This document shows, piece after piece, positions 31,897 through 58,432 of a stretch of DNA of 64,000 bases. Both the position numbers and the translations under genes were made by a program. The notes beneath the pieces were generated by a model, which did not search any database, was not told the origin of the DNA, and was given only the letters and a program-made list of their open reading frames with translations. Position 1 is the first letter of the stretch; every line of letters begins with the position of its first letter. The DNA lies in NCBI GenBank assembly GCA_019634385.1, contig JAHQVK010000050.1, forward strand, positions 20,072-84,071, written 5' to 3'. The stretch comes from Myxococcales bacterium (lineage in GTDB: Bacteria > Myxococcota > Kuafuiibacteriia > Kuafuiibacteriales > Kuafuiibacteriaceae).

Positions 31897-32805
31897 TCAT
31901 GCGGGCGCGCTTGAGGCAGTGCGTTGCCGCTGGCCAGTGCGCCACGAATGCCGCCTTCGGCCTCGCCGCTGACGGGACGCCAGCCAAGCTCCCGCAGCCG
32001 GGTCGCGTCGAGGGCCGCATCCATCCATCGCGAGGAACGCGGCCAGCGGCCCGTTGGCTTCGTTCGCCTCTGACAGCGAGCGATGTCGTACGGGCACGCT
32101 CACCGCTTCGGCGATGGCCGTCCAGATCCCGACCATTGGCTCCGGCTCGAGCTCCGCGGCATGAAAAACACCGCGGGCCTCAGATTCGGCGAGCAGGACG
32201 TACGCATCGGCGAGGTCGCGTACATGCACGGTCGACCACCGATTCTCCCCGCCGTCGATAACATACGCGGCGCCCGTCGATGCTCCCTGCACCATGCGCG
32301 CGACCGGGCCACCGCCGTCGCCGTAGACGATCGGGGGTCGAACGACGACGCCTCGAACGGAGCGGGCGGCGAGCACCCGTTCCTCGGCGTGGGCAAGCCA
32401 ATCCAGCGGCCCCCCGAGCGGTGCAACATCGGACTCGACGACCGGAACACGGCTACTCCTCGCCCGCGGTGCTCCGCTGGTTGTTACGAATACCCCGCCT
32501 TCCATGCTCGCCAACATTGCTGTCACTGCAGCTTCGTCGATTGCCGCCCGCTGAGGTCCGGGGTCCGCGGCCGTGTGCACGACTCCATCGCCTCGTGCCA
32601 CGACCGCTGCGAGCACGGCGACGTCGGTCAAGCTCGCCTCGACGGGCGTGCCCCCGGCCGCGCGAACGACTTCCGCTGCGTGTGCAGAGCGAGCGAGGCC
32701 TCGCACCCGGTGCCCTCGTTTGACGAGCGCACGCGTCACCGCAGAGCCGATGTAGCCACTGGCTCCCGTGACGAACAGGTCCAAGGCTCCTTGATCGGCT
32801 GTGAC
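31897..32805 (-). CDS. NmrA-like / atypical SDR NAD(P)-binding oxidoreductase (in high-GC island)
   Basis: Rossmann motif VTGASGYIGSAVTRALVKRGHRVRGLARS. The region is about 70% GC against about 54% in the flanks. Start approximate: a GTG near aa 164 of the 465-aa ORF, whose upstream part runs into the neighbouring gene in a different frame. Confidence 0.6.
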   Translation of the reverse strand, partial: VTADQGALDLFVTGASGYIGSAVTRALVKRGHRVRGLARSAHAAEVVRAAGGTPVEASLTDVAVLAAVVARGDGVVHTAADPGPQRAAIDEAAVTAMLASMEGGVFVTTSGAPRARSSRVPVVESDVAPLGGPLDWLAHAEERVLAARSVRGVVVRPPIVYGDGGGPVARMVQGASTGAAYVIDGGENRWSTVHVRDLADAYVLLAESEARGVFHAAELEPEPMVGIWTAIAEAVSVPVRHRSLSEANEANGPLAAFLAMDGCGPRRDPAAGAWLASRQRRGRRRHSWRTGQRQRTASSAPA

Positions 32806-33016
32806 GTGGAAGACGACAGCCCCGGCCGGGGGCCTACGACGAAGACGCGGAACTCGGCCTCGAGGATGAGGGGGGAGGACGCTCTCGTCATCGACGATGC
32901 CGTGCTGGGGGCCATTGCTGGCGCCCCCACGTTGGCCGTCAAAGACGTCGAGACACTGTTCGCGGAGAACGAGCCGACCCCTAACTAGCTGACCATAACA
33001 GGCACACCCTAGGAGG

Positions 33017-33898
33017 CTACAAAAGGGATAGTTGAGCTCGATCGGAGGATGTTGGACGCAGTGGCCAGTCGGGCAGAGGGGCCATTTCGGGCATGACTTG
33101 GCACAGATGCTCATGAAACCGCCGGGCCAACCACGGAGCGTGGTGATCGTCCGGGGTATGACAATAAAAAAACGGTGATCGTCCCTCCCTAATCCAAATG
33201 GCCACCGTCTCTGCCCACTCACGTAAGAATGGATCACATTCTTCCACCTGATTACGACCGATAAACCGGACCAGCGGGTGCTGACCGAGTGCAATCTTTC
33301 TCACTGGAACCCGCGGTTTACGGGACTGTGCTTCCGCCGTGCTTGGATCCTTGGGAGGCAATGAAAATAGGGGGCGGCTATCAAAGCACACCCGTTCCAC
33401 GCCAAAATGGGTCAACAAACGGTGGAGATCCCTCTCGTTGTTCCCTTGGTCAAACCAATCAACATGCCGAAGCTCAACGGCTAGTGGACGGTCTTGGGGC
33501 CAGTGTTCCAAAAAGTGGCGAACCCGTCGCCCTGCTGATCGGCCCGCTGATGGGGGAAGCTGTAGCATGCAGGGCCCAAGACAAGACCCAAGCGGAGATA
33601 ACACCTCTAGGAACCTCGATAGGTCTGCTTCATAAAACTGGAGTGCCTTTTCATGGGTGATTGTCCGCGGCAACTTAAAGGCAAATCGAAAATGGTCAGG
33701 GATCTCCGCCTTCCACTTCGCGACCGTGGTTAGAGACGGCAAAGCATAGAAGGTGCTGTTACCCTCTACAGTGGAAAAGAGCTGCGTATATGCCGAAAGC
33801 TGCCGACTGGCGGTCGTATGGGGAGGCAAAACCGCCCCCACCCAGCTTCGTGTCGCAAACACCGGGCATCCCAAGCGATAGAGTGGCGCGTAAGTCAC
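33017..33898 (-). CDS. DUF72 (YecE-like) family protein
   Basis: The VEGNSTFYALP motif and overall pattern match DUF72. 293 aa. Confidence 0.75.
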   Translation of the reverse strand: MTYAPLYRLGCPVFATRSWVGAVLPPHTTASRQLSAYTQLFSTVEGNSTFYALPSLTTVAKWKAEIPDHFRFAFKLPRTITHEKALQFYEADLSRFLEVLSPLGSCLGPCMLQLPPSAGRSAGRRVRHFLEHWPQDRPLAVELRHVDWFDQGNNERDLHRLLTHFGVERVCFDSRPLFSLPPKDPSTAEAQSRKPRVPVRKIALGQHPLVRFIGRNQVEECDPFLREWAETVAIWIREGRSPFFYCHTPDDHHAPWLARRFHEHLCQVMPEMAPLPDWPLRPTSSDRAQLSLL

Positions 33899-38295: not shown

Positions 38296-38408
38296 AAAGC
38301 AAAGACCACCTGAATTGATTCCGTTAGAATCAACAAGGGGTCGCGCAGCGGGGCATTGCACCGTGGAGAAGCTGGAACTTGGGTTCCAGCCAAGTTCTTT
38401 CTGCTGTA
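38296..38408 (+). repeat. MITE-like structured repeat, copy B (full length)
   Basis: aAAGCAAAGaccacctgaattgattccgttagaatcaa...cgcagcggggcattgc...ggaacttgggttccagccaagtt...TCTGCTGTa. Same three-hairpin architecture as copies A, D and E. Confidence 0.8.
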
Positions 38409-38550
38409 TTCCGGTACGAACCATCACCGCCTTGGGGTTTATCATCCCACCAGTTACAACTCGCCTTCCTCCGAAGCCAAACATTCAGACAATATAGACC
38501 CTCCGCAATAGTCCTCTTGCCGAGCTAAGCAACTCGCCCTAGTCGAGGGG

Positions 38551-39888
38551 TTGTTGAACGATGCACATGTGAAACCGATTACAACCACCAATTTCCTCTC
38601 GGAACTCACACGATTAGCAGTACCGAGTGCGTTATTTGTCCTTCTAACCAATGCATTTCGCATTGTCGATCAGTTCTGGGTCGATCGCATATCGGTTGCT
38701 GCTCAAGCCGGCGTTGGTGCCACCAGTTTTATCCTGGTTGTTGCGTACGCGAGTTTTGAGATAATATCCGCCGGCGCAAGCCCGCTTATTGCCCGATATA
38801 CTGGTGCCAACTCGCTAGACAAACGACGGATGGTGATCGCCGAAGGTTTGGTAGCTTGTTTGATCCTTGGAGGCGTCTGGATGGTGGTTGGAACCAGTAT
38901 CGCCCCGTGGCTAGTGAGCTCCTTAAGACTTGAACCAAGCGTAGAAACTGAGGCCAGAATCTACCTACAAACTCTCACAATCACCTCCCTGCCTCTGGTG
39001 TTTACGCCATTCCTTGACCATAGTTTTCTATCTATGGGAGATGCGCGTACCCCACTTTTTCTGCATGCAATATCTCTAGGCGGCAATATGATACTCACTC
39101 CTCTTTTGGCAGTGCACGCAGAACTGGGTGTAGCCGGCGCTGCCATTGCCTCACATCTATCTCGCGCGGTAGGTGCCGGAGCTGGGCTATACTTGCTATG
39201 GCGGCGTACCAAAATAACTAAAACCGACCTTCGGTTGGGATCTTACCTACCCACCATAGTCCGGCTAGGACTACCCATCGCTTCGGGTACCGCACTGTAT
39301 GGCACCTCTTACTGGTTGATGCTGCGTTTTGCAGTCTCACCCCTAGGAGCTCATGTCACCGCTGCTCTCGGGATCGGTTGGGCTGCTCTCGAAGGTATCA
39401 GTTGGCCCATATTTCACGGAGCGGGTATGGCAGTGGCTTCGATCATCGGTCGGCGGCTAGGAGCTCAAGACCGAGCCGGCGCCCAACGATTTGCCTTTGC
39501 CGGTTTGTTTAGTGCAGTGGCCATGGGAGCCAGTGTAACAGTGCTCTTTTTGACCGCGGGCACCATCATTACATCACCGTTTGCTAGCGTTCCCTCCGTT
39601 CATCGGGAAGCTATTAACTATGCTACAATCGTTGGCTACTCACAAGTGGCGGTGGCCATCGAGTCGGTTACGGAGGGTATCCTGGCTGGTGCTGGTGCAA
39701 CTCGCTGGATTTTTTGGACCAGTGCTCCCCTAAATCTATCGCGTGCTCCCCTAGCCTGGTTACTCGCCATACACTTTCAATTTGGTTCAGACGGGCTATG
39801 GTGGGTCATAGTATTTACGACATGGGTAAAAACTTTGCTCAAATTGACCCTAGTATTCCGCGGCCATTGGCTCAATGAATTACTATGA
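38551..39888 (+). CDS. MATE-family multidrug/oligosaccharide efflux transporter
   Basis: 445 aa with 12 predicted TM helices in two 6-TM halves, typical of MATE (NorM-like). Confidence 0.7.
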   Translation: MLNDAHVKPITTTNFLSELTRLAVPSALFVLLTNAFRIVDQFWVDRISVAAQAGVGATSFILVVAYASFEIISAGASPLIARYTGANSLDKRRMVIAEGLVACLILGGVWMVVGTSIAPWLVSSLRLEPSVETEARIYLQTLTITSLPLVFTPFLDHSFLSMGDARTPLFLHAISLGGNMILTPLLAVHAELGVAGAAIASHLSRAVGAGAGLYLLWRRTKITKTDLRLGSYLPTIVRLGLPIASGTALYGTSYWLMLRFAVSPLGAHVTAALGIGWAALEGISWPIFHGAGMAVASIIGRRLGAQDRAGAQRFAFAGLFSAVAMGASVTVLFLTAGTIITSPFASVPSVHREAINYATIVGYSQVAVAIESVTEGILAGAGATRWIFWTSAPLNLSRAPLAWLLAIHFQFGSDGLWWVIVFTTWVKTLLKLTLVFRGHWLNELL

Positions 39889-39932
39889 GCATTAACACAG
39901 TGCATCGTGAACAATTCCCACCTCGGCGTACT

Positions 39933-39975
39933 ACAGCAAAAATCGCTTGGGTTCAACCCAAGTGGTCTATGCTGT
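39933..39975 (+). repeat. MITE-like repeat, copy G (43-bp minimal derivative)
   Basis: tACAGCAAAAatcgcttgggttcaacccaagtggtctATGCTGTa. It keeps the termini and the central ttgggttcaacccaag hairpin only. Confidence 0.65.
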
Positions 39976-40027
39976 ACACCGCCAATATTAGGCGACAATA
40001 CAATGGGACGGACATTAGTTCAACCCA

Positions 40028-42326
40028 TTGACTTCACGTCGTCAACCGGTAGCAAACCACCAAGAGGATGCAATACTAAAAACAAATTTGCTCATACTAG
40101 GTGCCATTGTTGGCGTATCAGCGACCATTGGCTGTGACGACCATGACGATGGAATTGTAGGTTTCCCACCTTCAAATCTACTCGGAACCATCACCGCCGA
40201 AAATCTCTCTGAGCTGGCCCAGGCGGTCACAGACGCCAACATAGAAAGTAATATCCGAAACGATGAACTCACCGTATTCGGTCCGACCAATGAGGCATTC
40301 TCTAACCTAAACACCACTTTCGAAAGTAAAAAGTTGCTGGCCAACCTATTGCTCTACCATGTGGTCGCTGACCACGAGCTTACTTTGGAAAAAATTCAAC
40401 AGGGGGATGGCATCATTACCCTGACTAAATGGCCACTTAAGTACGAAAGAAACACCCTCAACGGTTCAGAGCTCTCAGGGGACAAGCTCAACATCGAAGC
40501 TAGCAACGGTCTTCTTAACATCATTGAGAGAGTATTGATACCACCCACCATCTATGAAGCAGCGGTCGCTACACCTACGCTTTCTAAGTTATCCGAGCTT
40601 CTCAATACCGAAAACGAGGCCGTCATAACCATTAGGCAAATGTTTGATGCCAAAGACGCCGACGACGACGTCCTAAGTACCCTAGGTATTGGTCAAGAAC
40701 TAACCGTCTTTGCGCCCGAAAACACAGCTTTTACTGGAGATACCCCCGAAGGAGAAGATATGGTTAACCTTCTTCGGTACCACGCAGTCAAGGAACAGCT
40801 TCTCTCAAGGAACCTTATGAATATGGATGGTCAGATACTCACCACCATTTCGCCCCGAAAGATGAAGCAATTCCTCCGGAAATACCCGCCGGAACGGTGC
40901 TTTCGAACATTCTTCTTCATCACGTGAACATTCTTCTTCATCACGTAGTAGTAGGCAAAGAGACGATCGCCTCAGATGACATCAAGGCCAACACAAGCTT
41001 CACCACCGCCACCAATACAACCCTCACCGTAACCCAAGACGGTGCGTGGTCTCTATCAACGAAAGAGTTCTTGACCCCGACAAGTTGGATCAGGAAGCAA
41101 TCAACGGCGTAGTACACGGCCTGACGGACGGCTTTATGCTGCCCCCTTCGATCGAAAATTTTCTCGACGGTGAAGACTTTAGTGAACTGAGTGCATATGT
41201 GGATGACGCATTGGGCAAAAACCTCTTCAACCAGAAACCGTCTACACCATTTTTGCGCCCACAAATGATGCTATCCCCGACGATGAAACCATGGCTTCGG
41301 ATGCGAACATGTACCACATCATAGCCGGAGAGCAGATACTTCCCAACGCTAGTGAAAAACTCACTGTTGCAACTTTGCTTGACGACACCAGCCTTCTCGT
41401 GGAAGAAAGCAACAGTAAGTATTACATCACCGCCAATAGCAACGCTCGGTTTGCAGTCCAGAAAGTCGTCCGTCTGCTCAACGGGCTCGTGTACGTGATC
41501 GACCAAGTTCTAGATCCCACCGACGGAAAACTTCCCGCGACATTGGCAGGTGACTACACCAATTTCGCAACCCATCGATACCGTCGGTTTGACCCCAACC
41601 CTGGATAAACTAGGTAGGATATTCACAGTGTTTTCGCCGCAGAACGATGCCATTGACGCCTTCCAACTGGGTACTTACGACCAGCTCGAGAACATTCTTC
41701 TTCATCATCTTGTCCATCGACAAGTAGTATCTAACGACTTTATCGTAGGTGCTAGCTTTGTAACCGCGGCCAACACCAAAATAACCTTAACTCAAGGCGA
41801 AGGTGAAAGCTTGTTGATCGGTGATGTGGCATTCAACGCGGACGCAGGTGATATCCAAGCAACCAATGGTATCATCCACGGACTGGCAGACCACATGACC
41901 CCTCCCACCGTTTTAGAGTACCTAAAGAGCAATCATCCAGTATTGGTCTCCACCTTAGCTCTCGACGAGGGTGAGGATGATGACATCACCTTTCCCCAAG
42001 ACATTCTGACGATCTTTGCCCCCACTGATGCTGCTTTGGGAGAGCTTGAAGCCGATGCCACTACCGCGGAAGTCCTGACTTTCCACGTAGCATCTGGCCA
42101 GCAATACTCAGTAGTTGCTGGTAACGAACCACAAACCGTTGTTGATGTACCCACCGAATTGGGAGTCAACCTAAAGCTTAGCTACGAAGATGGTAACATA
42201 ATGGTGAGCCACAGCGAAGGGGATGCTGAGCAGAAACTACCTGTTCAAAAGACTATTCGTCTCTTAGACGGCATGGTTCATGTTATCGACGGAGTCCTGC
42301 TCCCCCCTGAACCAGTCGCCGAATAG
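40028..42326 (+). pseudogene. Multi-domain fasciclin (FAS1) secreted protein gene, disrupted by at least 4 frameshifts
   Basis: FAS1 motifs (TVFGPTNEAF, LLLYHVV, LTVFAPENTAF, FAPKDEAI, FTVFSPQNDAI, NILLHHLV, TIFAPTDAA) are distributed over five overlapping ORFs in different frames: 40028-40927, 40897-41112, 41046-41324, 41291-41608 and 41550-42326. Confidence 0.6.
40905..40946 (+). repeat. Perfect 21-bp tandem duplication (gaacattcttcttcatcacgt x2) inside the FAS1 gene
   Basis: Seen directly in the sequence. It encodes NILLHHV twice, so it is in frame and not itself a frameshift. Confidence 0.85.
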
Positions 42327-42335
42327 CCCCACTCA

Positions 42336-44081
42336 TCAGGATACGCTAGCCAGGGCTGAAAGACACAGTCGAAACACTGTGCCCAAACCGGTTGGCGAAC
42401 GGTAAGTTAGCTCTCCGCCATGCGCCCGCACAATGGCACGAGCAATATCCAAACCTAATCCCAACCCATTTCCTCCTTTGGTCGAAAAGAACGGCTCAAA
42501 AACCCGGTCGCCAATAGTAGACGAAATCCCTGGACCGTTATCTTGAACCTCGATCGTAGACCACCCATCCTCCTCATCCACGGTCAAGATAATCCGACCC
42601 GGCGTTTCGCCCAGAGCGTCCGCAGCATTCTTGATTAGGTTCACAAGCACCTGTCGTATCCGCCCCGGATCTACTTCAGCCCAAGTATCCTCGTTTACCA
42701 CAATTCGCATCTCGTGTCGTTTTACCCCAGTATCTATCTGTGTGAACCGGACTACAGCCCGACAGAGATCAGCCATATCGGTCGGCTGCCGACGCTCCGC
42801 CACCGACTGTGCCCCTCTCGCAAAGCCCTTCACTTCCGAAACCAGATCCACAATATGCTGCCGAGCCTCGAGCATCATTTCCACAGCAGCCTGTGTTTCT
42901 TTGTCGTCCGGATACTTACGGGCAATCATATCCGCCAATGCAAATGGCGAAAGATGATTGTTCACTTCGTGAGCCAATCCACTCGCTAACCGCCCCACAA
43001 TCGCTAATTGCTCGGACCGTACCAATTGCGCTTGGGTGCATAATAGGCTTGCCTGCGCTTCCTTAAGCTTCTGTATCGTTTCTTCCCTCCGCTCCGCAAG
43101 CCTCAGGTTTTCAAGGGTTTGGCCCACCATAAACGCAATAAGGGTCAATAGATCCAGATCTGGCTCTGAAAACCGATCAATAGTCTCACTCTCGACGACC
43201 ATCGCTCCCAACAACCGGTCACGCAGAAGAATTGGTACCGCCATAAAAGCTTGAGTAGGACTGAGGAACAACGACTCCGAGGCCGCAAACCGATCATCGT
43301 CACCTAGATCTCGGCTCAGTACGGCACACCGCTGGGATAGGACATACTCAACGACGGTCGTAGATAGTTGAGGAAGATCCTGCACTTTATCTGAAGACCG
43401 GCAGCGATATATATCTACCTGAAAATCATCCCTTGAAGTATGTGAGCTATCCTCTCGCGATCCTTCATCGTCCGAAAGCGCCACAAACGCTCGTTCCCCT
43501 TCGAGCACATTCAAGACTCCATCGAGGACTTCAGCAAGCATCTCGCGAGGATGATGACTTTCTCGAAGCGTTCGACTGAGTTCATGGAGAACGGCAAACT
43601 GCCGAGTTTTTTGTAGCAGCTCCCCGGGAGCCCTAATATCGAGCAGTGTATTGTCACCCAGTCCCAGCGATTGAAAGAAGGTGTCTTTGCCTAGCGAGTC
43701 CAACGTGGGGATATCATCCACAGATACCGGTTTGATCACCTTGCCCCACAAATTAGGCACAACGGGCTTGGCACTGTCCGGCATGTGAACCCGGAGCCGA
43801 TACGGACCAACCATAAGCACATCGCCATGACCTAGCTCGTGCCGCGCTACCCGAACACCATTCAATACTGTCCCATTCGGGCTATCCAAATCTTGTAACA
43901 CCCACTGACCACGCTCTAGAAAAACACGAGCATGGTGCCGACTCACCCGGCGATCTTGAATCTGCACCCCGCAATCTGGGGCCCGTCCTAAGATCGCCGC
44001 CCCACTCAGGGTAATACGCTGGCCCGCCTTGGCGTCGGGCGCTTCAAAGCAAAGCTCCATATGGACACCATCATCCTCCAC
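42336..44081 (-). CDS. FHA-GAF sensor histidine kinase
   Basis: N-terminal FHA (GRAPDCGVQIQDRRVSRHHARV...SPNGTVLNG). Central GAF. HisKA (LASGLAHEVNNHL). HATPase (NLIKNAADAL, DNGPGIS, GLGLGL). Confidence 0.85.
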   Translation of the reverse strand: MEDDGVHMELCFEAPDAKAGQRITLSGAAILGRAPDCGVQIQDRRVSRHHARVFLERGQWVLQDLDSPNGTVLNGVRVARHELGHGDVLMVGPYRLRVHMPDSAKPVVPNLWGKVIKPVSVDDIPTLDSLGKDTFFQSLGLGDNTLLDIRAPGELLQKTRQFAVLHELSRTLRESHHPREMLAEVLDGVLNVLEGERAFVALSDDEGSREDSSHTSRDDFQVDIYRCRSSDKVQDLPQLSTTVVEYVLSQRCAVLSRDLGDDDRFAASESLFLSPTQAFMAVPILLRDRLLGAMVVESETIDRFSEPDLDLLTLIAFMVGQTLENLRLAERREETIQKLKEAQASLLCTQAQLVRSEQLAIVGRLASGLAHEVNNHLSPFALADMIARKYPDDKETQAAVEMMLEARQHIVDLVSEVKGFARGAQSVAERRQPTDMADLCRAVVRFTQIDTGVKRHEMRIVVNEDTWAEVDPGRIRQVLVNLIKNAADALGETPGRIILTVDEEDGWSTIEVQDNGPGISSTIGDRVFEPFFSTKGGNGLGLGLDIARAIVRAHGGELTYRSPTGLGTVFRLCLSALASVS

Positions 44082-44212
44082 TGCGTATATGATATTCGTT
44101 TCACAAACAAAGAGCGACGACCAATCATCAATTCCGAGCTGCTCACGATACTTCGACAGGAGAGATGTCGTCCAGGGAAGCCAAACATCTCCACTCAGCT
44201 AAGCTGAGCGAC

Positions 44213-46237
44213 TCAATCTGGTGAAAGTCTATAGAGACCGTACTCGGCCTCGGAGACCACAAAAAGGAGGGTGCCAGTCCAAAACGCATGGGCAACTTTC
44301 GACACCTGTGGTGCACCTTCATCGACCATCCGCTGCCATCGATCTTCCGATAGCCTAAGTTGACTTCCCACGACCGGATCAAAGAGTTCCTGGCCACCAA
44401 TTACCATCAGCACCCCATCCGCGAACACCATCCCTGGACGAACTCTAGCGGTTGGTGCTTCGCCACCTGGAGGGAGGTCTGTCCATTCACCAGTCCCGGG
44501 ATCGAAACGAGAGCCTCCACTGATCGCAACCTCTACTATCCCGTCATCTTCTAGGGTGTATCCGCCGAAGAAAATCATCTCTTCACCGGTCCACACCACT
44601 CCGTGGCCATGACGCTCTTGGAGAAGAGGATCCTCCAAAAGCATCCACTTATCGTCCTCAGGCTCAAAACGGAACGTCTCGTGCAGATTTCTCTGTGACC
44701 GATTGGGATCCAGATCCAGCGTGGCGCCCCCATGCACAATCATATGGTCACCAGTCCACACTGCGACATGTCCTCGTCGAGGTGAGTAGTTGCTCGGAGA
44801 ATTAACTGGCACCCACTGGTCATCGGGAGGTGCATCAGGTCGATAGCGATAACCATCTTGCAGTAGTCGTGGAGCAAGAGGATCGGAGTTTCCCACCCCA
44901 CCAAAGACGATCATCTCTTCACCAGTCCACACCGCAGTATGCTCAGCTCGAGCACCAACCGTTTCTGGAACCTCTAAAGCAGTCCAAGTATCGGTTGTTG
45001 GGTTGTAGCACGCACCGTCTGAGAGCGGCGTCTTAGTCACACCACTACCGTATCCACCAAAAACGATCATCTCTTCGCCGGTCCACACCGCGGTGTGCTT
45101 AGTCCGAGCTCCCGGAGCATTTGTAGTGCTCATAGACGACCAGGTGCTGGTCTCAAGATCGTACACAACCCCATTTGCAACTACCTGCTCTCCTTCTTTC
45201 CCACCCCCAAAGAAGAGGATCTCCGTGCCAGCCTGAACGCTGGAGCTACCGGACAAAATCGGTGATACTCCCACCGATCGCTTCACCCATTGACGAAGAC
45301 AGCGAGAAGGAGAGTTTAGCGGACGATCACAAAGCCAGCCTGGTTCAACCTGGCAAGTCTCACTGCACCCATCATTGTCCAGCTGATTACCGTCATCACA
45401 CCTTTCACTATCTACAACGCGGCTGTCGCCACATAGCGCGGTACAAAAAGAGGGCTGGTTGTTATCACAGGTCCACCCCGGTTCTGGGGTGCATGTTGCG
45501 CTACAACCATCTCCAGACACCTGATTTCGGTCATCACAAACCTCAACCCCCTTCTCTACTCTCCCATTGCCGCACTCAAAGCAGCTCGACTGCTCCCCTA
45601 CTCGTCCTGGGCAGGTCCACCCTTCTTCGATGATACAGTCCTCACTACACCCATCATCCTCGGTATCATTGCCATCGTCACATGCCTCACCGGTAACTCT
45701 GCGACCATCACCACACTCGGCGATGCAGGTTGAGGGCAGGGGTTCTACAGCGCACTGAAAGCCGAGCTCTAAACGGCAGGTGGTGCTGCAACCATCTCCT
45801 CCCACCGCATTGCCATCATCACACTCCTCGCCCCCAACCAACTGCGCATCACCGCATTGGCCATCACATCTACTCGGTGAAGCCACTCCACACGTCCATC
45901 CGGTCTCCACCACGCAGTTTGCTGAGCAACCATCGCCACTTAAAGTATTATTGTCATCGCATGCTTCCGGCTGAATCCGTTCACCATCACCACACTCAGG
46001 TACGCAGACGGAAATCCCGTCCGGGCCGATTTGACATACAAATCCTACTTCGAGGCGACAGACCGAACTACAGCCATCAAAGTTGTTGCGGTTGTTGTCA
46101 TCGCAAGCCTCAAACCCATCAACCACCCCATCTCCACAATCTCCCAAGAGAAGATCCAAATCGCGGGAACGCGTACAAGCACCCGCAACTATGAGTATCA
46201 ACAGCAATCCTACAACTATTCGTGGAGTCTCCATCAT
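44213..46237 (-). CDS. Secreted protein with Myxococcales-type Cys-rich repeats (CGDG...EACDDGN) followed by Kelch beta-propeller repeats
   Basis: Signal peptide. About 8 tandem 'C..DG..EECDDGN...DGCS..C' repeats. Then repeated VWTGEEMIVFGG Kelch motifs. Confidence 0.8.
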   Translation of the reverse strand: MMETPRIVVGLLLILIVAGACTRSRDLDLLLGDCGDGVVDGFEACDDNNRNNFDGCSSVCRLEVGFVCQIGPDGISVCVPECGDGERIQPEACDDNNTLSGDGCSANCVVETGWTCGVASPSRCDGQCGDAQLVGGEECDDGNAVGGDGCSTTCRLELGFQCAVEPLPSTCIAECGDGRRVTGEACDDGNDTEDDGCSEDCIIEEGWTCPGRVGEQSSCFECGNGRVEKGVEVCDDRNQVSGDGCSATCTPEPGWTCDNNQPSFCTALCGDSRVVDSERCDDGNQLDNDGCSETCQVEPGWLCDRPLNSPSRCLRQWVKRSVGVSPILSGSSSVQAGTEILFFGGGKEGEQVVANGVVYDLETSTWSSMSTTNAPGARTKHTAVWTGEEMIVFGGYGSGVTKTPLSDGACYNPTTDTWTALEVPETVGARAEHTAVWTGEEMIVFGGVGNSDPLAPRLLQDGYRYRPDAPPDDQWVPVNSPSNYSPRRGHVAVWTGDHMIVHGGATLDLDPNRSQRNLHETFRFEPEDDKWMLLEDPLLQERHGHGVVWTGEEMIFFGGYTLEDDGIVEVAISGGSRFDPGTGEWTDLPPGGEAPTARVRPGMVFADGVLMVIGGQELFDPVVGSQLRLSEDRWQRMVDEGAPQVSKVAHAFWTGTLLFVVSEAEYGLYRLSPD

Positions 46238-48246
46238 GGGGATACTCCTCCAGCTATTGACGAGCGTGTTTCCACCTCTGGCAGCGCCCGTTCTGTTACT
46301 TGTTTAATAGTTGGAGTATGAGATGATCGTGGAGGCTCAAAAATCCATTGCATCAATGCTGTTCCCACCAAAAATGAGGCCACCCCTAGAGCAGAAAACC
46401 CGATAGTCTGCGCTCGCTCTCGGCTGTCCTCTGACTCACGAGCGATAGCCTGGGTGGTCTCAAACCGGATGGTGCCCGCCAATCCATCCAATCGAGCAAT
46501 AGCTTCATCGCGATGGCTAGCAGCATCATGGGCTGCAACCATTCGTTCTGCGCCTACCCCTGCTGCCACTGCGCTAAGCCCAAGGCTTAGCCACTTTGCC
46601 CACCGAGCAGCATAAATTTTTGGCTTCGCCGGCGCCTGTGACATCTTCAGTGATGAAGTAGGTATCTCTGTAGAGAAGGCCATAGAAGGCGATGTTACTT
46701 TCTTTGTGGGCGCATTTCGGATCCACCAGCGAGGAGTGGTCTGCATGAATGTGACGACGCTCGGCGTATTCACCGCTTCAAACTCACCAACGACCGTCTG
46801 CCCTCCTACCTGTTTCCATCTATCAAGCAACCGTAGTAAGAGCTCCGAGGGTACCCGTTCCTCCTCACCTGACGGGGCAGCGGTAGCCGTGGCTAAAGAC
46901 TGCTCCACAGGGATATCTATACCTGTTCCTTGCACACCGAATTCATAAGCTACTAAGCCCAGCTGATACCTATTCGCAAGCTCGGCCATCATCGCCAACT
47001 GGGCAAGTTCCACCGAAATTGGGTCCGTTTCTGAAGAAGACTGTTCAACAACCACCTTCTGCTCATGTATCGAAGGCACTAGCAGCTTCACTCCTAGTAC
47101 ATCTATACCGTCTAAGACGGTATTTTGCTTAAGCAGCGATTCAACAACATCTTTGCGTTCCAAAGGAACAGTCAGCACCCGCACCAGGCGGGATGGATCC
47201 AGGTGATGATACATAGCTGCAAAGAGGTCAGTAGAGCGCTGAGCGCGGTATTGAATGGCGCCCAAGATGGGGTCTGCATCAAGTACCCGCCAAGCCACAG
47301 CTGGTGGCTGTTCATCGGCAGTACCATATTCAAGAAAGAGTTTTTGTGAGGGCAATAATCGTTCACTAACCAACTTCGCGAGAGCCTCAACATAAGCCTC
47401 GTTCGCGGTCCATGGAAGCGCTAACCACACGTCCGCGTGGAGTGCATTAGCGAGATCGAGGCTATGTTCGTACGCTGCCCCACTAGGTCCGGTTTGAATG
47501 CCATAGTTAGCTAGAATACGACGGTCCCAGTCGGAGGATTTCATCATATTCCCCTGCCAATCTACCATTCGAATAACAGAGAATTTTTCAAGCTTATGTA
47601 AAAGTTGATCCTGATACTTGGGTACAGCCTTCTTGCCCTCATAGTTCGCTCGAATAATGCGGATATTTTTTATTGGAAGCGAAGGGCTCACTCGACGAAT
47701 TTGCAGAGCCACTCGAGCTTGAGTCGCTGTCCAGAAAATACGACCAACATCGTTGGTACGCACATTACTAGCCCCCTCCACCACTAACTCTCCATCTCCC
47801 TCAAAGATGGTTATATAGTCAGCCCCAGGAACCACACCAAGCTCCGCATAAGCCACCTGATCAGGTAGTAATTGGCGCACCCACCCCTCTTCATTGAAAG
47901 ACACGGGCCTAGAGTCCGGTTCCCCCTCACGGTTTGCTGAACGCCACTCAGAAGCCTCTCGAAAGCGATTCGTAAACACCATCAGCCCTCGCTCGAGCCC
48001 CAAAGGCGGAAGGTTCACACCTACGGGGGAGCTCGTATTGCGTGCCGGACGTTGCTCATCAACAACCTCGGGAAGTTCATCAAACGCCCCAGAATCATCC
48101 TCTGGAACCGCCCATTCGAAGTGTCTCTCCGCAGCAACCGGTGAAACAGCAACCGGCGGGGGCGGATACACCACCACACAAGCCGCGGTTCCCTCCAGAA
48201 TCATGCCTATCCCCAAAACTAGGGAAAAAGCCGCACGAAATCCCAC
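46234..48246 (-). CDS. Hypothetical 670-aa protein with an N-terminal signal and C-terminal TM helices. Its stop overlaps the start of the downstream Cys-rich/Kelch gene by 4 nt.
   Basis: Long intact ORF with no recognisable catalytic motif. Two hydrophobic helices near the C-terminus. Confidence 0.55.
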   Translation of the reverse strand: MGFRAAFSLVLGIGMILEGTAACVVVYPPPPVAVSPVAAERHFEWAVPEDDSGAFDELPEVVDEQRPARNTSSPVGVNLPPLGLERGLMVFTNRFREASEWRSANREGEPDSRPVSFNEEGWVRQLLPDQVAYAELGVVPGADYITIFEGDGELVVEGASNVRTNDVGRIFWTATQARVALQIRRVSPSLPIKNIRIIRANYEGKKAVPKYQDQLLHKLEKFSVIRMVDWQGNMMKSSDWDRRILANYGIQTGPSGAAYEHSLDLANALHADVWLALPWTANEAYVEALAKLVSERLLPSQKLFLEYGTADEQPPAVAWRVLDADPILGAIQYRAQRSTDLFAAMYHHLDPSRLVRVLTVPLERKDVVESLLKQNTVLDGIDVLGVKLLVPSIHEQKVVVEQSSSETDPISVELAQLAMMAELANRYQLGLVAYEFGVQGTGIDIPVEQSLATATAAPSGEEERVPSELLLRLLDRWKQVGGQTVVGEFEAVNTPSVVTFMQTTPRWWIRNAPTKKVTSPSMAFSTEIPTSSLKMSQAPAKPKIYAARWAKWLSLGLSAVAAGVGAERMVAAHDAASHRDEAIARLDGLAGTIRFETTQAIARESEDSRERAQTIGFSALGVASFLVGTALMQWIFEPPRSSHTPTIKQVTERALPEVETRSSIAGGVSP

Positions 48247-48292
48247 CCTCGCTTAGTGCACTCCGACGGTCAGCGGGTCCAATGTCTTGCGA

Positions 48293-50131
48293 TTAACGAC
48301 CCCGAAAATCTCCCACCGACGATTTGTTTAGCGGAGAAGTTACGTCCCCTGCGGATTCGAGCAAACGTTGGCGTCGAAGTTTTCCGAGCGAGCGGGCAAG
48401 AACCTGAGCCACCTGTGCCGCCCGCGAAGGACGAGACACGACCGAGTTCGAAAGACACTGCATGATGCAATCTTTGACTTCCGGCGGGAGATTTTCGATA
48501 ACCGGCAGCTCAGGGGGCAAGGCGGTCATGCGTTGTTTGAGCGCATCTACCGTCGGTTCAAACGGGGGCCTTCCTGCGAACATCTCCCAGAGCACCACAC
48601 CCAAAGAAAAGATATCTGCCCGCGGATGGGGCGGGCGGCCTCGAGCTTGTTCTGGTGACATATACCGAATCGTACCCACCATCATCCCCTCTTCGTGGTC
48701 AGCGTCTTGTTGAACGGCAACCCCAAAATCCATCAGTTTCGGCCGGGCCTTCCGATTCACAAGGATATTGCTCGGTTTGATATCCCGGTGGACAATTCCT
48801 GCCGAGTGGATCGCCTCTAGGGCCTCCGCAAGACGGTGTCCCACGTGAAGGGCCAGAATAAGTTCAAGTCGTCCGGAACGGAGAAGATTTCTCAGACTTC
48901 GCCCTTCAAAATACTCCATGGCCAAAAAGGTCAGATCCCCTTCTCGACCGAAATCGAAGATCTCTAAGCAACCCGGATGGTGCACCTGAGCTGCCAACCG
49001 AGCTTCAACCAAAAAGCCTTCGAGCGCGTCCGGATTGTCGACATGACGATCCGACAGAACCTTGATCGCTAGTTCGCGATCCAACACCTGGTCTCTCGCA
49101 CGATAAACTTGCGCTTGGGCACCTCGACCAACCTTCTCCTCCAAACGAAAGCGACCGCGTAGCAAGGTACCAGACAAGTCCTCCGCTGATGAAATGGAGG
49201 GGGTCAGTGCCAATAGAGGGCCTACATCCAATGGAGCGGAGGTCGCTGAGGCTTCTCCATTTACTTTAACCACCGCACTGATCGCGGCATCGATTTCGGA
49301 GGTTGAACTCACCGAGAGCCCCGGCTCATTCCCCCCCAAGATTTCGAGTGTGCGGCCATCAGGCGCAATCTCTCGCCCGGATAAAGCGGTTAGGTCGGCC
49401 TTGTTCTCTCCGTCCACAAACGCCAGATCATCCGTTCCTTGGCGTGGAACCCAGTTGGCTGCCGGATGCTGAGGATCGAAGCGCTGAACTACAGAACGGA
49501 GATGAAGAGCGTAGATATCCGCGCCTAGAGCCTCGGCTGCCGTCAACTCGCGAACCCATGCTTCAACATCCTGAGCGAGAGGACTCCGACCCCGGCGAGC
49601 AATGTACGCATCCCGAAATCGAGCCCGAGTTTGCACCCAATTTTCTCTCACCAACAATGAATGATCTGAGGCAGCCCCTCCTTCAACTGCAGCTTCACCA
49701 ATCAGTGGTGAAAATGGCGGATTTTTCTTTTGAGTGTCTCGATTCGATGAGTCCGATACGAACGACACCAATCGTGCTGGAGAAACCTTCAACGAAGCTA
49801 AGCCCGCGGGGAGGGTTGGCGCACGGTGCGAAACTACAGTAGGGGCCCGAGTACCGAGAAGCTGCGCCGCTCGGTCGTGCTGACCAGTGCGAGCAGCAAT
49901 CACTACCGCAGAGTCAGTCAATCCTCGCTCGACCAGTAGCTCCACCGCCACTTCTGGTTCACCACTCTGTTCATAGATGCGGGCTGCTCGGGTGACCAGG
50001 CGTCGGCCAGCTTCTTCATGGCCGTGCGAGAAAGCCTCAGTTGCTTGAGCAACCAGTTTAACGGCCACACGCGTGGAGCGACAGCTATCAGCCCGCTTAG
50101 TCAAGTTCCTCCCCCAGTCGCTGCTAACCAC
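48293..50131 (-). CDS. Ser/Thr protein kinase with the kinase domain at the C-terminus and a helical N-terminal domain
   Basis: Hanks motifs in the C-terminal half: GRGAQAQVYRA...AIKVL, HRDIKPSNILV, DFG, SPEQ. About 290-aa helical N-terminal region. Confidence 0.85.
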   Translation of the reverse strand: MVSSDWGRNLTKRADSCRSTRVAVKLVAQATEAFSHGHEEAGRRLVTRAARIYEQSGEPEVAVELLVERGLTDSAVVIAARTGQHDRAAQLLGTRAPTVVSHRAPTLPAGLASLKVSPARLVSFVSDSSNRDTQKKNPPFSPLIGEAAVEGGAASDHSLLVRENWVQTRARFRDAYIARRGRSPLAQDVEAWVRELTAAEALGADIYALHLRSVVQRFDPQHPAANWVPRQGTDDLAFVDGENKADLTALSGREIAPDGRTLEILGGNEPGLSVSSTSEIDAAISAVVKVNGEASATSAPLDVGPLLALTPSISSAEDLSGTLLRGRFRLEEKVGRGAQAQVYRARDQVLDRELAIKVLSDRHVDNPDALEGFLVEARLAAQVHHPGCLEIFDFGREGDLTFLAMEYFEGRSLRNLLRSGRLELILALHVGHRLAEALEAIHSAGIVHRDIKPSNILVNRKARPKLMDFGVAVQQDADHEEGMMVGTIRYMSPEQARGRPPHPRADIFSLGVVLWEMFAGRPPFEPTVDALKQRMTALPPELPVIENLPPEVKDCIMQCLSNSVVSRPSRAAQVAQVLARSLGKLRRQRLLESAGDVTSPLNKSSVGDFRGR

Positions 50132-50254
50132 CAGCGGCCAAGTCCAACCTTAGCGGAGATTGACCAGGAGGAAAACGCTTTCGGACAAAGGATGGAATTA
50201 GCAGTCACTTGGTCGGTTGATCTTTGCATAGCCTCGGCTGAGGGTAAGTAGTAT

Positions 50255-51754
50255 ATGGGGATCCCTGAACGGGACCTTCTCCGCGACGCTGTCGCCAGCA
50301 TGACGGGGGAAGGCTATTTTGTACTCGATCTCATGGGGCGGTACGTCGCTTTCAATAACGTACATAAGGAGATGATGAGTGGTGCAGCGGAACTCTCACC
50401 TCAGATCGGTGAATTCTTCCTACACCTGCTCTACCCTGGCTCAAAATCTGACATATCGCCCCCGTCGCACTCACTCCAGAATGCGTTCACCGATGCGCTT
50501 TCTGGAGTGGTTACTGTAGGTTCTGTTCGCCAAGCTGGTGGGATCAAACTGGAATTTGAGATTAAGTTTAGCCCATTGGGCTCACCGGAAATCCGAGGTG
50601 TCATTGGCCGACATCCCGGGCCTGGTGGACGCCGGATACCGTTGGCAGTAGAGCCCGTGCCGGCACCCATCGCCCAACTCTCCGACGGCGTCCTCAATGA
50701 ACTTAATAACTTAGGGGTCGGATTGAGCGGTGTACTAGAAACACTAAACCAAAGTGCTGCTATGTCTTCCGGGGAAGCTCAACTTAGTCAACGGGTAGCG
50801 ATCGAACTATTGGAGCAAGTACGCACCCGAGCCGAACGAGCCCGACGCCTCGGACGAACTATTCGCTCCCAAGCAATGCCCTCGCCGGATGCCGAGATGG
50901 ACGTAGATGTATGGCTGGCAGACTTGGAGCCAAAACTTCAAGCGCGGGCTCCTGGGGTGAAACTGCATGTGGAGCGAGGTCTAGGCAATGCGCGCATCAT
51001 CGCCCACACCCAGGAGCTCGAAGATGCTCTCTTCGAGCTCGTGCAAAACGCGGCACAGGCCCACGCCGATCATATCGTAGTTCGCTCTAGACTAGAGCTC
51101 TCAACAAGCACCCAGTCCCCCAAAACGATGACTCTCGAGGTAGAAGACGATGGTGAAGGCATTTGCAAGGAGCGGATTGATCGGGTGCTCGAGCCTTACG
51201 TCGGATCACGGAAGCACACTCAGGGCATAGGACTCACCCGGGTCAAGAGCATTGCTGGTACCCACGGAGGCTCAGTAGCTATTCGGTCCGGTCCCTCCGG
51301 CGGAACCATCGTGGCGCTTCATCTACCTCTGTCTCATCGCAATGAGCCGGAAACAATGGATCTTCACGTAGAGACCTTCCAACCCCCCCCGCAACAATCC
51401 ATACTCGTTGTGGATGACGCTCCAGAAGTACGACGGGTGTTGGGCCGAGTCCTACGTAATGCCGGTCACGATGTCTTCGAAGCGGAGGATGGACTGGATG
51501 CATTGGAGAAACTGAGTGAGCGCCACACCATGCCCGACCTCATCATTCTCGACTTGATGATGCCCCGTATGGACGGGATCGAAACCTACCGAGAACTGCG
51601 GATGCGCTCTGAAATTCTTCCCATACTTATCACTAGTGGCTACCACCCATCGAGTCTCGACTTCCTGACCACCGACGGCCAGGCCAGGTTCCTGCCTAAA
51701 CCGTTTTCTCCAACCGAAGTACTTGCCTCCGTTGACCAGCTCTTGAGCAAATAA
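50255..51754 (+). CDS. Hybrid sensor histidine kinase / response regulator
   Basis: PAS-like N-terminus. HATPase (QNAAQAHADHIVV...GIGLT). C-terminal receiver (ILVVDDAPEVRRVL...ILDLMMPRMDG). Confidence 0.8.
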   Translation: MGIPERDLLRDAVASMTGEGYFVLDLMGRYVAFNNVHKEMMSGAAELSPQIGEFFLHLLYPGSKSDISPPSHSLQNAFTDALSGVVTVGSVRQAGGIKLEFEIKFSPLGSPEIRGVIGRHPGPGGRRIPLAVEPVPAPIAQLSDGVLNELNNLGVGLSGVLETLNQSAAMSSGEAQLSQRVAIELLEQVRTRAERARRLGRTIRSQAMPSPDAEMDVDVWLADLEPKLQARAPGVKLHVERGLGNARIIAHTQELEDALFELVQNAAQAHADHIVVRSRLELSTSTQSPKTMTLEVEDDGEGICKERIDRVLEPYVGSRKHTQGIGLTRVKSIAGTHGGSVAIRSGPSGGTIVALHLPLSHRNEPETMDLHVETFQPPPQQSILVVDDAPEVRRVLGRVLRNAGHDVFEAEDGLDALEKLSERHTMPDLIILDLMMPRMDGIETYRELRMRSEILPILITSGYHPSSLDFLTTDGQARFLPKPFSPTEVLASVDQLLSK

Positions 51755-51762
51755 GAGAACAC

Positions 51763-53236: not shown

Positions 53237-53347
53237 CAACAGAAATCACTTGGGTTGAACCCAAGCGCCTGCTTTTACGCCGGGCTATGCCCCGCTGCGC
53301 GACCACTTGTTGATTCTTATAGAATCAATTCAAGTGGTCTTTGCTGT
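53237..53347 (-). repeat. MITE-like structured repeat, copy C (full length, reverse orientation)
   Basis: Reverse complement reads tACAGCAAAGaccacttgaattgattctataagaatcaa...cgcagcggggcatagccc...cttgggttcaacccaagtgatTTCTGTTGTg. Confidence 0.8.
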
Positions 53348-53470: not shown

Positions 53471-55285
<1,815 letters not shown>

Positions 55286-55666: not shown

Positions 55667-55778
55667 TTAACCATATACAGCAAAGACTCCTTGAATTGAT
55701 TCTGTAAGAATCAACAAGGAGTCGCGCAGCAGGGCATTGCCCCGCTGCGAAGCTGGAACTTGGGTTCAACCCAAGTTC
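55667..55778 (+). repeat. MITE-like structured repeat, copy D (full length)
   Basis: tACAGCAAAGactccttgaattgattctgtaagaatcaacaaggagtcgcgcagcagggcattgccccgctgcg...ggaacttgggttcaacccaagttctTTCTGCTGTa. Confidence 0.85.
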
Positions 55779-58065: not shown

Positions 58066-58122
58066 ACAGCAAAGCCTCCCGGAGAAGCCAGAACTTGGGT
58101 TCAACCAAGGGATTTCTGCTGT
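58066..58122 (+). repeat. MITE-like repeat, copy F (57-bp internally deleted derivative)
   Basis: tACAGCAAAGcctcccggagaagccagaacttgggttcaaccaagggatTTCTGCTGTa. Confidence 0.7.
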
Positions 58123-58321: not shown

Positions 58322-58432
58322 ACAGCAAAACCACTTGAATTGATTCTGTAAGAATCAACAAGGGGGCGCGCAGCGGGGCATTGCTCCCCAGAGAAACTGG
58401 AACTTGGGTTCAACCCAAGGGATTTCTGCTGT
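58322..58432 (+). repeat. MITE-like structured repeat, copy E (full length)
   Basis: tACAGCAAAAccacttgaattgattctgtaagaatcaacaagggggcgcgcagcggggcattgctcccc...ggaacttgggttcaacccaagggatTTCTGCTGTa. Confidence 0.85.

What the first reader, a model, noticed from the sequence alone, without database searches (positions are those of the whole stretch)
40028..42326. Multi-FAS1 (fasciclin) gene fragmented by at least 4 frameshifts, with an in-frame 21-bp perfect duplication
Fasciclin motifs (TVFGPTNEAF, LLLYHVV, FAPKDEAI, NILLHHLV, TIFAPTDAA) continue across five overlapping ORFs in three frames. This looks like one secreted protein of about 760 aa and 4-5 FAS1 domains carrying several single-base indels. 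The surrounding genes are intact, so a genuine, recent pseudogene is more likely than sequencing error, although homopolymer errors cannot be excluded.

Inside it, a perfect 21-bp tandem duplication at 40905-40946 repeats the core NILLHHV motif. It is in frame, so it is not the cause of the breaks.
Basis: seen in the sequence. Interest (0 to 1): 0.5.

Follow-up and report, generated by a model that had tools for sequence, protein, structure and literature searches.

The report
Decayed six-domain fasciclin lipoprotein pseudogene
This is an ordinary dead gene: a six-domain fasciclin surface lipoprotein gene in an uncultured myxobacterium, broken by a roughly 260-bp deletion, a 21-bp duplication, three small indels and probably a lost start codon, which GenBank lists as several small genes.

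Summary
Five overlapping + strand ORFs (40028-42326, frames 2,1,0,2,0) carry FAS1 sequence, and 40905-40946 is a perfect 21-bp tandem duplication.

Relatives show the ancestral state was one gene. Between the same MatE and FHA-GAF kinase genes they carry a single intact fasciclin lipoprotein gene (851, 871 or 582 aa). One relative has none.

The damage goes beyond "single-base indels":
- The first frame break is the junction of a deletion of about 87 codons, which fuses half of FAS1-2 to the back of FAS1-3.
- Three more breaks are small indels that can only be placed within 10-25 bp.
- The codon where orthologues start, 4 nt after AAGAGGA, is ATA.

All six domains score about half as well as those of intact relatives. 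The gene's branch is about 2.2-2.7 times longer than four neighbouring genes predict, so "recent" is doubtful.

A second, non-identical assembly (11 SNPs, no indels in 14 kb) carries every lesion. No other gene in the 64 kb is broken, which makes sequencing error unlikely.

Verdict: a real but ordinary pseudogene of low novelty. GenBank lists its fragments as separate proteins.

The parts
38551..39888 (+). Intact MatE efflux gene, the upstream syntenic anchor
   Evidence: Pfam MatE E=2e-32. MatE flanks the fasciclin slot in relatives.
39925..39983 (.). Hairpin copy of a REP/MITE-like intergenic repeat between MatE and the pseudogene
   Evidence: Inverted repeat I1. The core CTTGGGTTGAACCCAAG occurs 6 times in the window against 0.18 expected. 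Alignment A2.
40062..40075 (+). Shine-Dalgarno-like AAGAGGA (40062-40068), a 4-nt spacer, then an in-frame ATA (40073-40075) where orthologues have their ATG. Inferred ATG>ATA start-codon lesion.
   Evidence: Orthologues have GGAGA or GGAGG 4-7 nt before ATG and 20-21 residues before the lipobox Cys. ATA gives 20 residues. The only upstream start, TTG 40028, gives 35, outside the 14-29 range of 45 homologues.
40028..40846 (+). Frame-2 piece: lipoprotein signal (…LLILGAIVGVSATIGC), complete FAS1-1 (about 40172-40546) and the N-terminal 85 profile positions of FAS1-2 (about 40547-40846). The ORF then runs out of frame to the stop at 40925-40927.
40841..40852 (+). Frame break 1 (frame 2 to 1), the junction of a deletion of about 87 codons (roughly 260 bp, length 3n+1). 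It removed the back of FAS1-2 and the front of FAS1-3. Hard bounds 40768-40927.
   Evidence: The alignment gap of about 91 columns. Whole-protein profile positions 257-343 are missing. The domain profiles end at B85 and restart at A40. Bounds.
40849..41046 (+). Frame-1 piece: FAS1-3 from its TxFAP motif onward
40905..40946 (+). Perfect 21-bp tandem duplication (GAACATTCTTCTTCATCACGT x2), in frame, doubling NILLHHV of the FAS1-3 core
   Evidence: TRF 100% matches, score 84. Sequence. Present in the second assembly.
41043..41051 (+). Frame break 2 (frame 1 to 0, net -1 base). Not at a homopolymer. Hard bounds 40980-41112.
41046..41219 (+). Frame-0 piece: end of FAS1-3 (to about 41147) and start of FAS1-4 (from about 41172)
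41209..41223 (+). Frame break 3 (frame 0 to 2, net -1 base). The best fit includes the A5 run at 41217-41221. Hard bounds 41207-41324.
41219..41572 (+). Frame-2 piece: most of FAS1-4 (to about 41518) and the first residues of FAS1-5
41551..41573 (+). Frame break 4 (frame 2 to 0, net +1 base or -2). One candidate is an extra C in ACC-C-ATC at 41570-41576. Hard bounds 41514-41608.
41574..42326 (+). Frame-0 piece: FAS1-5 (to about 41903) and FAS1-6 (to about 42305), ending at the natural stop, with a C-terminus (…VHVIDGVLLPP…) like that of orthologues
42336..44081 (-). Intact FHA-GAF-HATPase sensor kinase, convergent with the pseudogene, the downstream syntenic anchor
   Evidence: Pfam. 100% identical to NCBI MBX2810923.1. 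Orthologues at 52-60% identity flank fasciclin genes.

Best explanation
The region is the decayed remnant of one gene. That gene encoded a surface lipoprotein of about 850 aa made of six FAS1 (fasciclin) domains in an alternating A-B-A-B-A-B pattern. It sat between a MatE transporter gene and a convergent FHA-GAF histidine kinase gene in an uncultured member of the Myxococcota.

In this lineage the gene became dispensable and accumulated independent disabling mutations, nearly all of the indel type:
1. A deletion of about 260 bp by illegitimate (out-of-register) recombination. It fused the first 85 positions of FAS1-2 to position 40 onward of FAS1-3 and shifted the frame.
2. A 21-bp replication-slippage duplication in the FAS1-3 core.
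3. Three small indels (net -1, -1 and +1).
4. Probably an ATG>ATA change at the start codon.

Shown: the homology, the frame path, the missing segment, the duplication, the single-gene state in syntenic orthologues, outright loss of the gene in one relative, persistence of every lesion in a second haplotype, and lineage-specific acceleration.

Inferred: that the lesions are biological rather than technical, the mutational mechanisms, the start-codon lesion, and that no functional product is made.
For: - FAS1 homology continues across five ORFs in three frames.
A profile built from the homologues maps the five pieces in order, with positions 257-343 missing.
- Domain-type profiles give A, B(1-85), A(40-134), B, A, B.
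- Synteny: ERR4592245 has kinase, an 851-aa fasciclin gene, then MatE. ERR4592244 has kinase, then a 582-aa fasciclin gene. GCA_964504175 has an 871-aa six-FAS1 protein in the slot. SRR17165160, GCA_039819565 and GCA_038520505 also have fasciclin genes convergent with the kinase.
- ENA genome ERZ26696514 has kinase and MatE only 164 bp apart, with no fasciclin remnant.
- Logan contig SRR12681089_538081 equals window 38330-52326 with 11 substitutions and 0 indels, and it carries all the breaks and the duplication.
- No other fragmented gene was seen in 64 kb, which is about 89% covered by long ORFs.
- No exact internal repeat of 20 nt or more exists that could mislead a k-mer assembler.
- Per-domain scores are 39-72 bits, against 87-175 bits in held-out intact proteins.
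- The branch-length ratio is 1.73 for the fasciclin gene against 0.63-0.79 for four flanking genes.
- Both SNPs inside the pseudogene fall at non-synonymous codon positions.
- Start codon geometry.
Against: - Raw reads could not be inspected. The sequencing platform of SRR12681089 is unknown to me, and the MAG and the Logan contig may derive from the same library, so the two assemblies may not be fully independent.
- Three breaks lie at or near short runs (TTT/CCCC, A5, CCC).
- No relative closer than about 60% kinase identity was found, so no indel can be placed to the base and the deletion length is an estimate.
- Codon-position GC periodicity is still normal and the FAS1 motifs are still readable, so decay is not advanced.
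- ORF1 (299 aa) keeps a signal peptide and one whole FAS1 domain, so some residual function is possible.
Confidence: 0.85

Rival explanations
1. Sequencing or assembly artefact: the gene is intact in the organism, and the frame changes, the deletion and the duplication were introduced by read errors or misassembly in the metagenome bin.
For: The source is a MAG. Breaks 1, 3 and 4 are near short homopolymers. The second assembly might come from the same reads.
Against: - Two assemblies that differ at 11 SNPs share every lesion and have no indel differences in 14 kb.
- There are four frame changes in 0.8 kb but none detectable in about 60 kb of neighbouring genes.
- The longest run involved is only A5.
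- An 87-codon out-of-register deletion and a perfect 21-bp duplication are not typical read errors.
- No internal repeat reaches k-mer length.
- Independent signs of relaxed constraint cannot be produced by indel errors: low domain scores even in unbroken domains, an accelerated branch and an ATA at the start position.
Confidence: 0.05
2. A partly functional remnant: ORF1 (40028-40927) is still expressed as a truncated lipoprotein with one complete FAS1 domain, while the downstream pieces are dead.
For: ORF1 retains a lipobox signal and a full FAS1-1, which is the best-scoring domain at 72 bits with the highest model confidence. Single-FAS1 bacterial proteins exist (general knowledge).
Against: - The codon at the orthologous start position is ATA, and the only upstream start (TTG 40028) lacks a ribosome-binding site and gives an atypically long leader of 35 residues.
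- FAS1-1 still scores well below intact relatives.
- The product would end in half a domain plus a 26-residue out-of-frame tail.
- One relative has lost the gene entirely.
Confidence: 0.08
3. Genuinely separate small fasciclin genes, as currently annotated in GenBank (MBX2810919 to MBX2810922).
For: GenBank and the Logan gene calls list them as separate proteins.
Against: - All syntenic orthologues are single ORFs.
- The ORF boundaries cut through FAS1 domains.
- ORFs 2-5 have no signal peptide, although FAS1 proteins are extracytoplasmic.
- ORF3 has no Pfam hit of its own.
Confidence: 0.01
4. Programmed recoding or phase variation: the frame changes are bypassed by ribosomal frameshifting or toggled by slippage at repeats.
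For: An A5 run lies at break 3.
Against: - No slippery heptamers and no repeat tract long enough for phase variation were seen.
- Four shifts in both directions would be needed.
- Break 1 is a deletion that removes 87 codons.
- Orthologues need no recoding.
Confidence: 0.01

Closest known systems
Bacterial multi-FAS1 'fasciclin domain-containing' lipoproteins of Myxococcota MAGs (e.g. P0029 851 aa, P0006 858 aa, the 871-aa protein of GCA_964504175)
   Same: Same genomic slot next to the FHA-GAF kinase and MatE. Same N-terminal lipobox followed by an acidic stretch (…GC-DD…). Same alternating A/B FAS1 architecture and same C-terminus.
   Different: The window copy is broken by a deletion of about 87 codons, a 7-codon duplication, three frameshifts and a probable start-codon loss. 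It is only 33-37% identical to the orthologues, which are 40-62% identical to each other. Its domains score about half as well.
TGFBIp (beta-ig-h3) and periostin, eukaryotic four-FAS1 extracellular matrix proteins (PDB 5nv6, 7asg, 5yjh)
   Same: Tandem FAS1 domains. They are the closest solved structures by sequence, with E=7e-24 and 3e-18.
   Different: They are eukaryotic, with an N-terminal cysteine-rich EMI/CROPT domain, four domains and no lipobox. They are only distant homologues, and the window copy is non-functional.
Ordinary bacterial pseudogenes formed by indels in dispensable surface-protein genes
   Same: Multiple frameshifts and a deletion in a gene that is intact in relatives and absent in others. 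The neighbours are intact and substitution is accelerated.
   Different: Nothing notable, other than that the lesions are all indel-type with no nonsense substitution, and that the record annotates the fragments as separate proteins.

Membership tests
FAS1 / fasciclin domain family (Pfam PF02469) | Significant match to the FAS1 profile above Pfam's gathering score | tested here: met
   ORF1 92 bits, ORF5 88 bits and ORF4 26 bits, against a cut-off of 22. The repaired protein scores 234 bits in 6 stretches.
FAS1 / fasciclin domain family (Pfam PF02469) | Conserved TxFAPxNxAF, [YH]H and NGxxHxID motifs in each domain | tested here: met
   The motifs align with invariant columns of eight homologues (T-F-P-A-F, H, N-G-H-P) in alignment A1. 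FAS1-2 lacks its C-terminal NGxxH motif because of the deletion.
Myxococcota six-FAS1 lipoprotein orthologue group | Located between the FHA-GAF kinase (convergent) and MatE | tested here: met
Myxococcota six-FAS1 lipoprotein orthologue group | Single uninterrupted ORF with complete alternating A/B FAS1 domains | tested here: not met
   Five ORFs in three frames. Domains 2 and 3 are truncated and fused. It is therefore filed as a pseudogene of this group, not as a functional member.
Myxococcota six-FAS1 lipoprotein orthologue group | ATG start 14-29 residues before a lipobox Cys, preceded by a GGAG-type ribosome-binding site | tested here: not met
   The RBS and the lipobox are present, but the codon is ATA. 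TTG 40028 gives 35 residues.
Pseudogene (non-functional gene remnant) | Disabling lesions relative to intact orthologues | tested here: met
   Four frame changes, an 87-position deletion and a 7-codon duplication.
Pseudogene (non-functional gene remnant) | Lesions are real in the organism, not technical | tested here: inconclusive
   They are reproduced in a second assembly that differs by 11 SNPs. Reads could not be inspected.
Pseudogene (non-functional gene remnant) | Relaxed selective constraint | tested here: met
   Branch ratio 1.73 against 0.63-0.79 for four flanking genes. All domains score low. This is a crude test based on identity distances.
Pseudogene (non-functional gene remnant) | No functional product is made | not testable with these tools
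   Needs transcript or protein data.
Programmed frameshift / phase-variable contingency gene | Slippery site or long simple-sequence tract at the shift, with the recoding conserved in orthologues | tested here: not met
   The longest run at any break is A5. The orthologues are single ORFs.

The most novel reading that the evidence does not exclude
The kinase-MatE slot may be a hotspot of fasciclin gene turnover in this Myxococcota clade. Observed states are 4, 6 and possibly 7 or more domains, complete loss, insertion of a PemK-like toxin gene and a GST gene, and here a multiply broken copy. The surviving ORF1 could be a newly minted single-FAS1 lipoprotein under selection rather than debris.
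Probability: 0.06. Interest if true: 0.3.

Novelty: new member of a known kind. Interest (0 to 1): 0.1.

Why it matters
The practical value is annotation hygiene. GenBank lists the fragments as separate 'fasciclin domain-containing' proteins (MBX2810919, MBX2810922 and the entries between them). These enter protein databases as spurious short families.

It also gives a small, clean example of how a dispensable repeat-domain surface protein decays in a free-living bacterium. Lesions are mostly indels, one is an out-of-register inter-domain deletion, and relatives show both variation in domain number and complete loss.

It does not open a new biological question.

Tried and rejected
- **Close intact orthologue.** I searched for one to place each indel. 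The genome-contig scan found only a 29%-identity Acidimicrobiia hit, and the metagenome-contig scan found nothing. Exact-protein look-ups of ORF4 and ORF5 found only the one Logan contig. The nearest relatives are about 60% identical in the kinase and 33-37% in the fasciclin gene.
- **Source NCBI contig.** I tried to retrieve it through P0121, but it is not on record.
- **Base-level placement of the indels.** I scored every possible repair against domain profiles. The scores are flat over 10-30 bp, and 1-base and 2-base models are indistinguishable.
- **Repeat-collapse misassembly.** Rejected, because the longest internal exact repeat is 18 nt.
- **Real antisense genes inside the region.** Rejected. 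The three minus-strand ORFs and the upstream 76-aa ORF have no Pfam hit.
- **Promoter and terminator scan.** No more sites than in shuffled sequence.
- **Literature.** Nothing on SRR12681089, and nothing relevant on Myxococcota fasciclin pseudogenes.
- **AlphaFold model of the repaired protein.** The alignment had only 9 sequences and the mean pLDDT was 66. The lowest-confidence folded stretch is residues 200-300, around the deletion junction, but this is weak evidence.

Full report
**1. The observation**

ORF listing shows five overlapping + strand ORFs at 40028-40927, 40897-41112, 41046-41324, 41291-41608 and 41550-42326, in frames 2, 1, 0, 2 and 0. Pfam's Fasciclin model (PF02469) hits four of them, with E-values 3e-26, 0.022, 9e-6 and 5.5e-25. 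Tandem Repeats Finder reports 40905-40946 as a 21-bp unit in 2.0 copies with 100% matches. It is the only perfect repeat of that kind in the window (sequence). It is a multiple of three and doubles the peptide NILLHHV in the local frame.

**2. Source and surroundings**

The flanking kinase is 100% identical to NCBI MBX2810923.1, from a MAG labelled Myxococcales bacterium, on a 159,316-bp contig. Upstream lies an intact MatE gene. Downstream and convergent is an intact FHA-GAF-HATPase kinase, followed by Kelch/DUF4215, a Ser/Thr kinase, a hybrid kinase and a Mur ligase. About 89% of the 64 kb is covered by long ORFs, and I found no other gene split across frames. Antisense ORFs inside the region have no family match.

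**3. One gene or several?**

A search with the frame-repaired protein returned hundreds of multi-FAS1 proteins. The best full-length ones are about 850 aa, and several are from Myxococcota.

I then used the kinase as an anchor and looked at its orthologues' neighbourhoods:
- ERR4592245: kinase, an 851-aa fasciclin gene, then MatE.
- ERR4592244: kinase, then a 582-aa fasciclin gene.
- GCA_964504175: an 871-aa protein in the slot, which I confirmed has six FAS1 domains.
- SRR17165160, GCA_039819565 and GCA_038520505: fasciclin genes convergent with the kinase, cut by contig ends.
- The 6-Mb ENA genome ERZ26696514: kinase and MatE separated by only 164 bp, with no fasciclin remnant.

The ancestral state is therefore a single gene. 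The gene is evidently dispensable, because one relative lost it outright and domain number varies between 4 and 6 or more.

**4. Anatomy of the damage**

The gap lies between …NMDGQILT in the middle of FAS1-2 and TIFAPKDEAI, the TxFAP motif of FAS1-3. A profile built from the homologues maps the five pieces in order, with positions 257-343 absent between the frame-2 and frame-1 pieces.

Separate profiles for the two alternating domain types give A, B(1-85 only), A(40-134 only), B, A, B. Break 1 (about 40841-40852) is therefore the junction of an out-of-register deletion of about 87 codons with length 3n+1. It is not a single-base indel.

| Break | Frames | Net change | Best-fit position | Hard bounds (from stop codons) | Note |
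|---|---|---|---|---|---|
| 2 | 1 to 0 | -1 | 41043-41051 | 40980-41112 | not at a homopolymer |
| 3 | 0 to 2 | -1 | 41209-41223 | 41207-41324 | includes an A5 run |
| 4 | 2 to 0 | +1 or -2 | 41551-41573 | 41514-41608 | a CCC is a candidate |

Profile scoring of all possible repairs is flat across these best-fit intervals, so base-level placement is not possible without a closer relative.

There are no in-frame nonsense substitutions along the repaired path.

At the 5' end, a strong AAGAGGA sits 4 nt before an in-frame ATA (40073). The two syntenic orthologues with DNA available have GGAGA or GGAGG 4-7 nt before an ATG that lies 20-21 residues before the lipobox Cys. In 45 homologues that distance is 14-29 residues. 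ATA gives 20, while the only available start (TTG 40028) gives 35 and has no ribosome-binding site. I infer an ATG>ATA start-codon lesion. This is an inference, not a demonstration.

**5. Real or technical?**

A Logan assembly of run SRR12681089 contains the locus. It equals window 38330-52326 with 11 substitutions and no indels, and it carries all the breaks and the duplication. Two haplotypes or assemblies therefore share every lesion.

No exact internal repeat exceeds 18 nt, so k-mer assemblers had no reason to collapse or duplicate sequence here.

Signals that indel errors cannot create also point to a dead gene:
- Every domain, including the unbroken ones, scores 39-72 bits, against 87-175 bits for intact family members held out of the profiles. 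The Pfam total is 234 bits, against 278-460.
- In a three-taxon comparison, the window branch for the fasciclin gene is 1.73 times the mean of the other two branches. For the kinase, MatE, the Ser/Thr kinase and the hybrid kinase the ratio is 0.63-0.79 (pairwise identities).
- Both SNPs that fall in the pseudogene are at first or second codon positions. Six of the nine SNPs in neighbouring genes are at third positions. These numbers are too small for a test.

I could not inspect reads, and I do not know whether the two assemblies share a library. I therefore leave about 5% for artefact.

**6. Age**

Normal codon-position GC (0.60/0.36/0.51, like the neighbours) and readable motifs show the remnant is not ancient. 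However, the count of at least five independent lesions, their presence in both haplotypes and the gene-wide acceleration argue against "recent". The likeliest history is a period of relaxed constraint followed by, or overlapping with, inactivation.

**7. Mechanism and function**

By homology, the ancestral product was an extracytoplasmic lipoprotein with six tandem FAS1 domains. The closest solved relatives are the adhesion and matrix proteins TGFBIp and periostin. What the bacterial protein binds is unknown.

The present locus most likely makes no functional protein. Translation initiation is probably impaired. ORF1 would end in half a domain plus an out-of-frame tail, and ORFs 2-5 lack export signals. 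Even with the frames repaired, the FAS1-2/3 fusion would contain one TxFAP…YH segment too many, plus the duplicated core heptapeptide. A shallow AlphaFold model gives its lowest confidence within folded regions to residues 200-300, around the junction. This is weak evidence. A residual role for ORF1 as a single-FAS1 lipoprotein cannot be excluded (about 8%).

**8. Comparison and novelty**

This is a pseudogene of a known family, in a known kind of genomic situation. Programmed frameshifting and phase variation are excluded, because there are no slippery sites or long tracts and the orthologues are single ORFs.

GenBank lists the fragments as separate fasciclin domain-containing proteins (MBX2810919 of 299 aa, MBX2810922 of 245 aa, and two accessions between them). 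They would be better annotated as one pseudogene.

Interest is low.

Noticed in passing
window 38378-38394, 39946-39962, 53249-53265, 55759-55775, 58094-58110, 58403-58419: A REP/MITE-like intergenic element. The palindromic core CTTGGGTTGAACCCAAG occurs 6 times against 0.18 expected by chance. Four copies share a consensus of about 80 bp, and all copies lie in spacers between genes. One sits just upstream of the pseudogene.
   Followed up: partly
window 40028-42326 (GenBank MBX2810919 to MBX2810922): The public record annotates the pseudogene fragments as separate proteins named 'fasciclin domain-containing protein', not as one pseudogene.
   Followed up: yes
window 32001-33000 (ORF 31897-33294, minus strand): A GC-rich island (0.68 against about 0.52 background, GC3 0.69) encoding an NAD-dependent epimerase/SDR-type protein. 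The longest ORF overlaps the neighbouring DUF72 gene, so its true start is probably further downstream. It may have been acquired horizontally.
   Followed up: partly
window 53471-55285 and 56072-57727 (minus strand): Two secreted enzymes carry an N-terminal CBM2 cellulose-binding module: a GH6 cellulase and a glucose/sorbosone dehydrogenase. Their inter-domain linkers are encoded by tandem repeats (6 bp x19.5 at 54756-54872, and 18 bp x12.4 at 57102-57324). This suggests a cellulose-degrading lifestyle.
   Followed up: partly
L006 10036-14180 (GCA_964504175) and L004 9773-9937 (ERZ26696514): The kinase-MatE slot is variable among relatives. One has a 79-aa ORF plus a PemK-like toxin gene inserted between the kinase and the fasciclin gene, and a GST gene between the fasciclin gene and MatE. 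Another has lost the fasciclin gene entirely.
   Followed up: partly
window 13290-14360: A 1.07-kb stretch without any long ORF, flanked by divergent genes. No tRNA or Rfam family was found there.
   Followed up: no
window 63767-63908: A tandem repeat (period 27 or 54) inside the open reading frame that runs off the end of the window.
   Followed up: no
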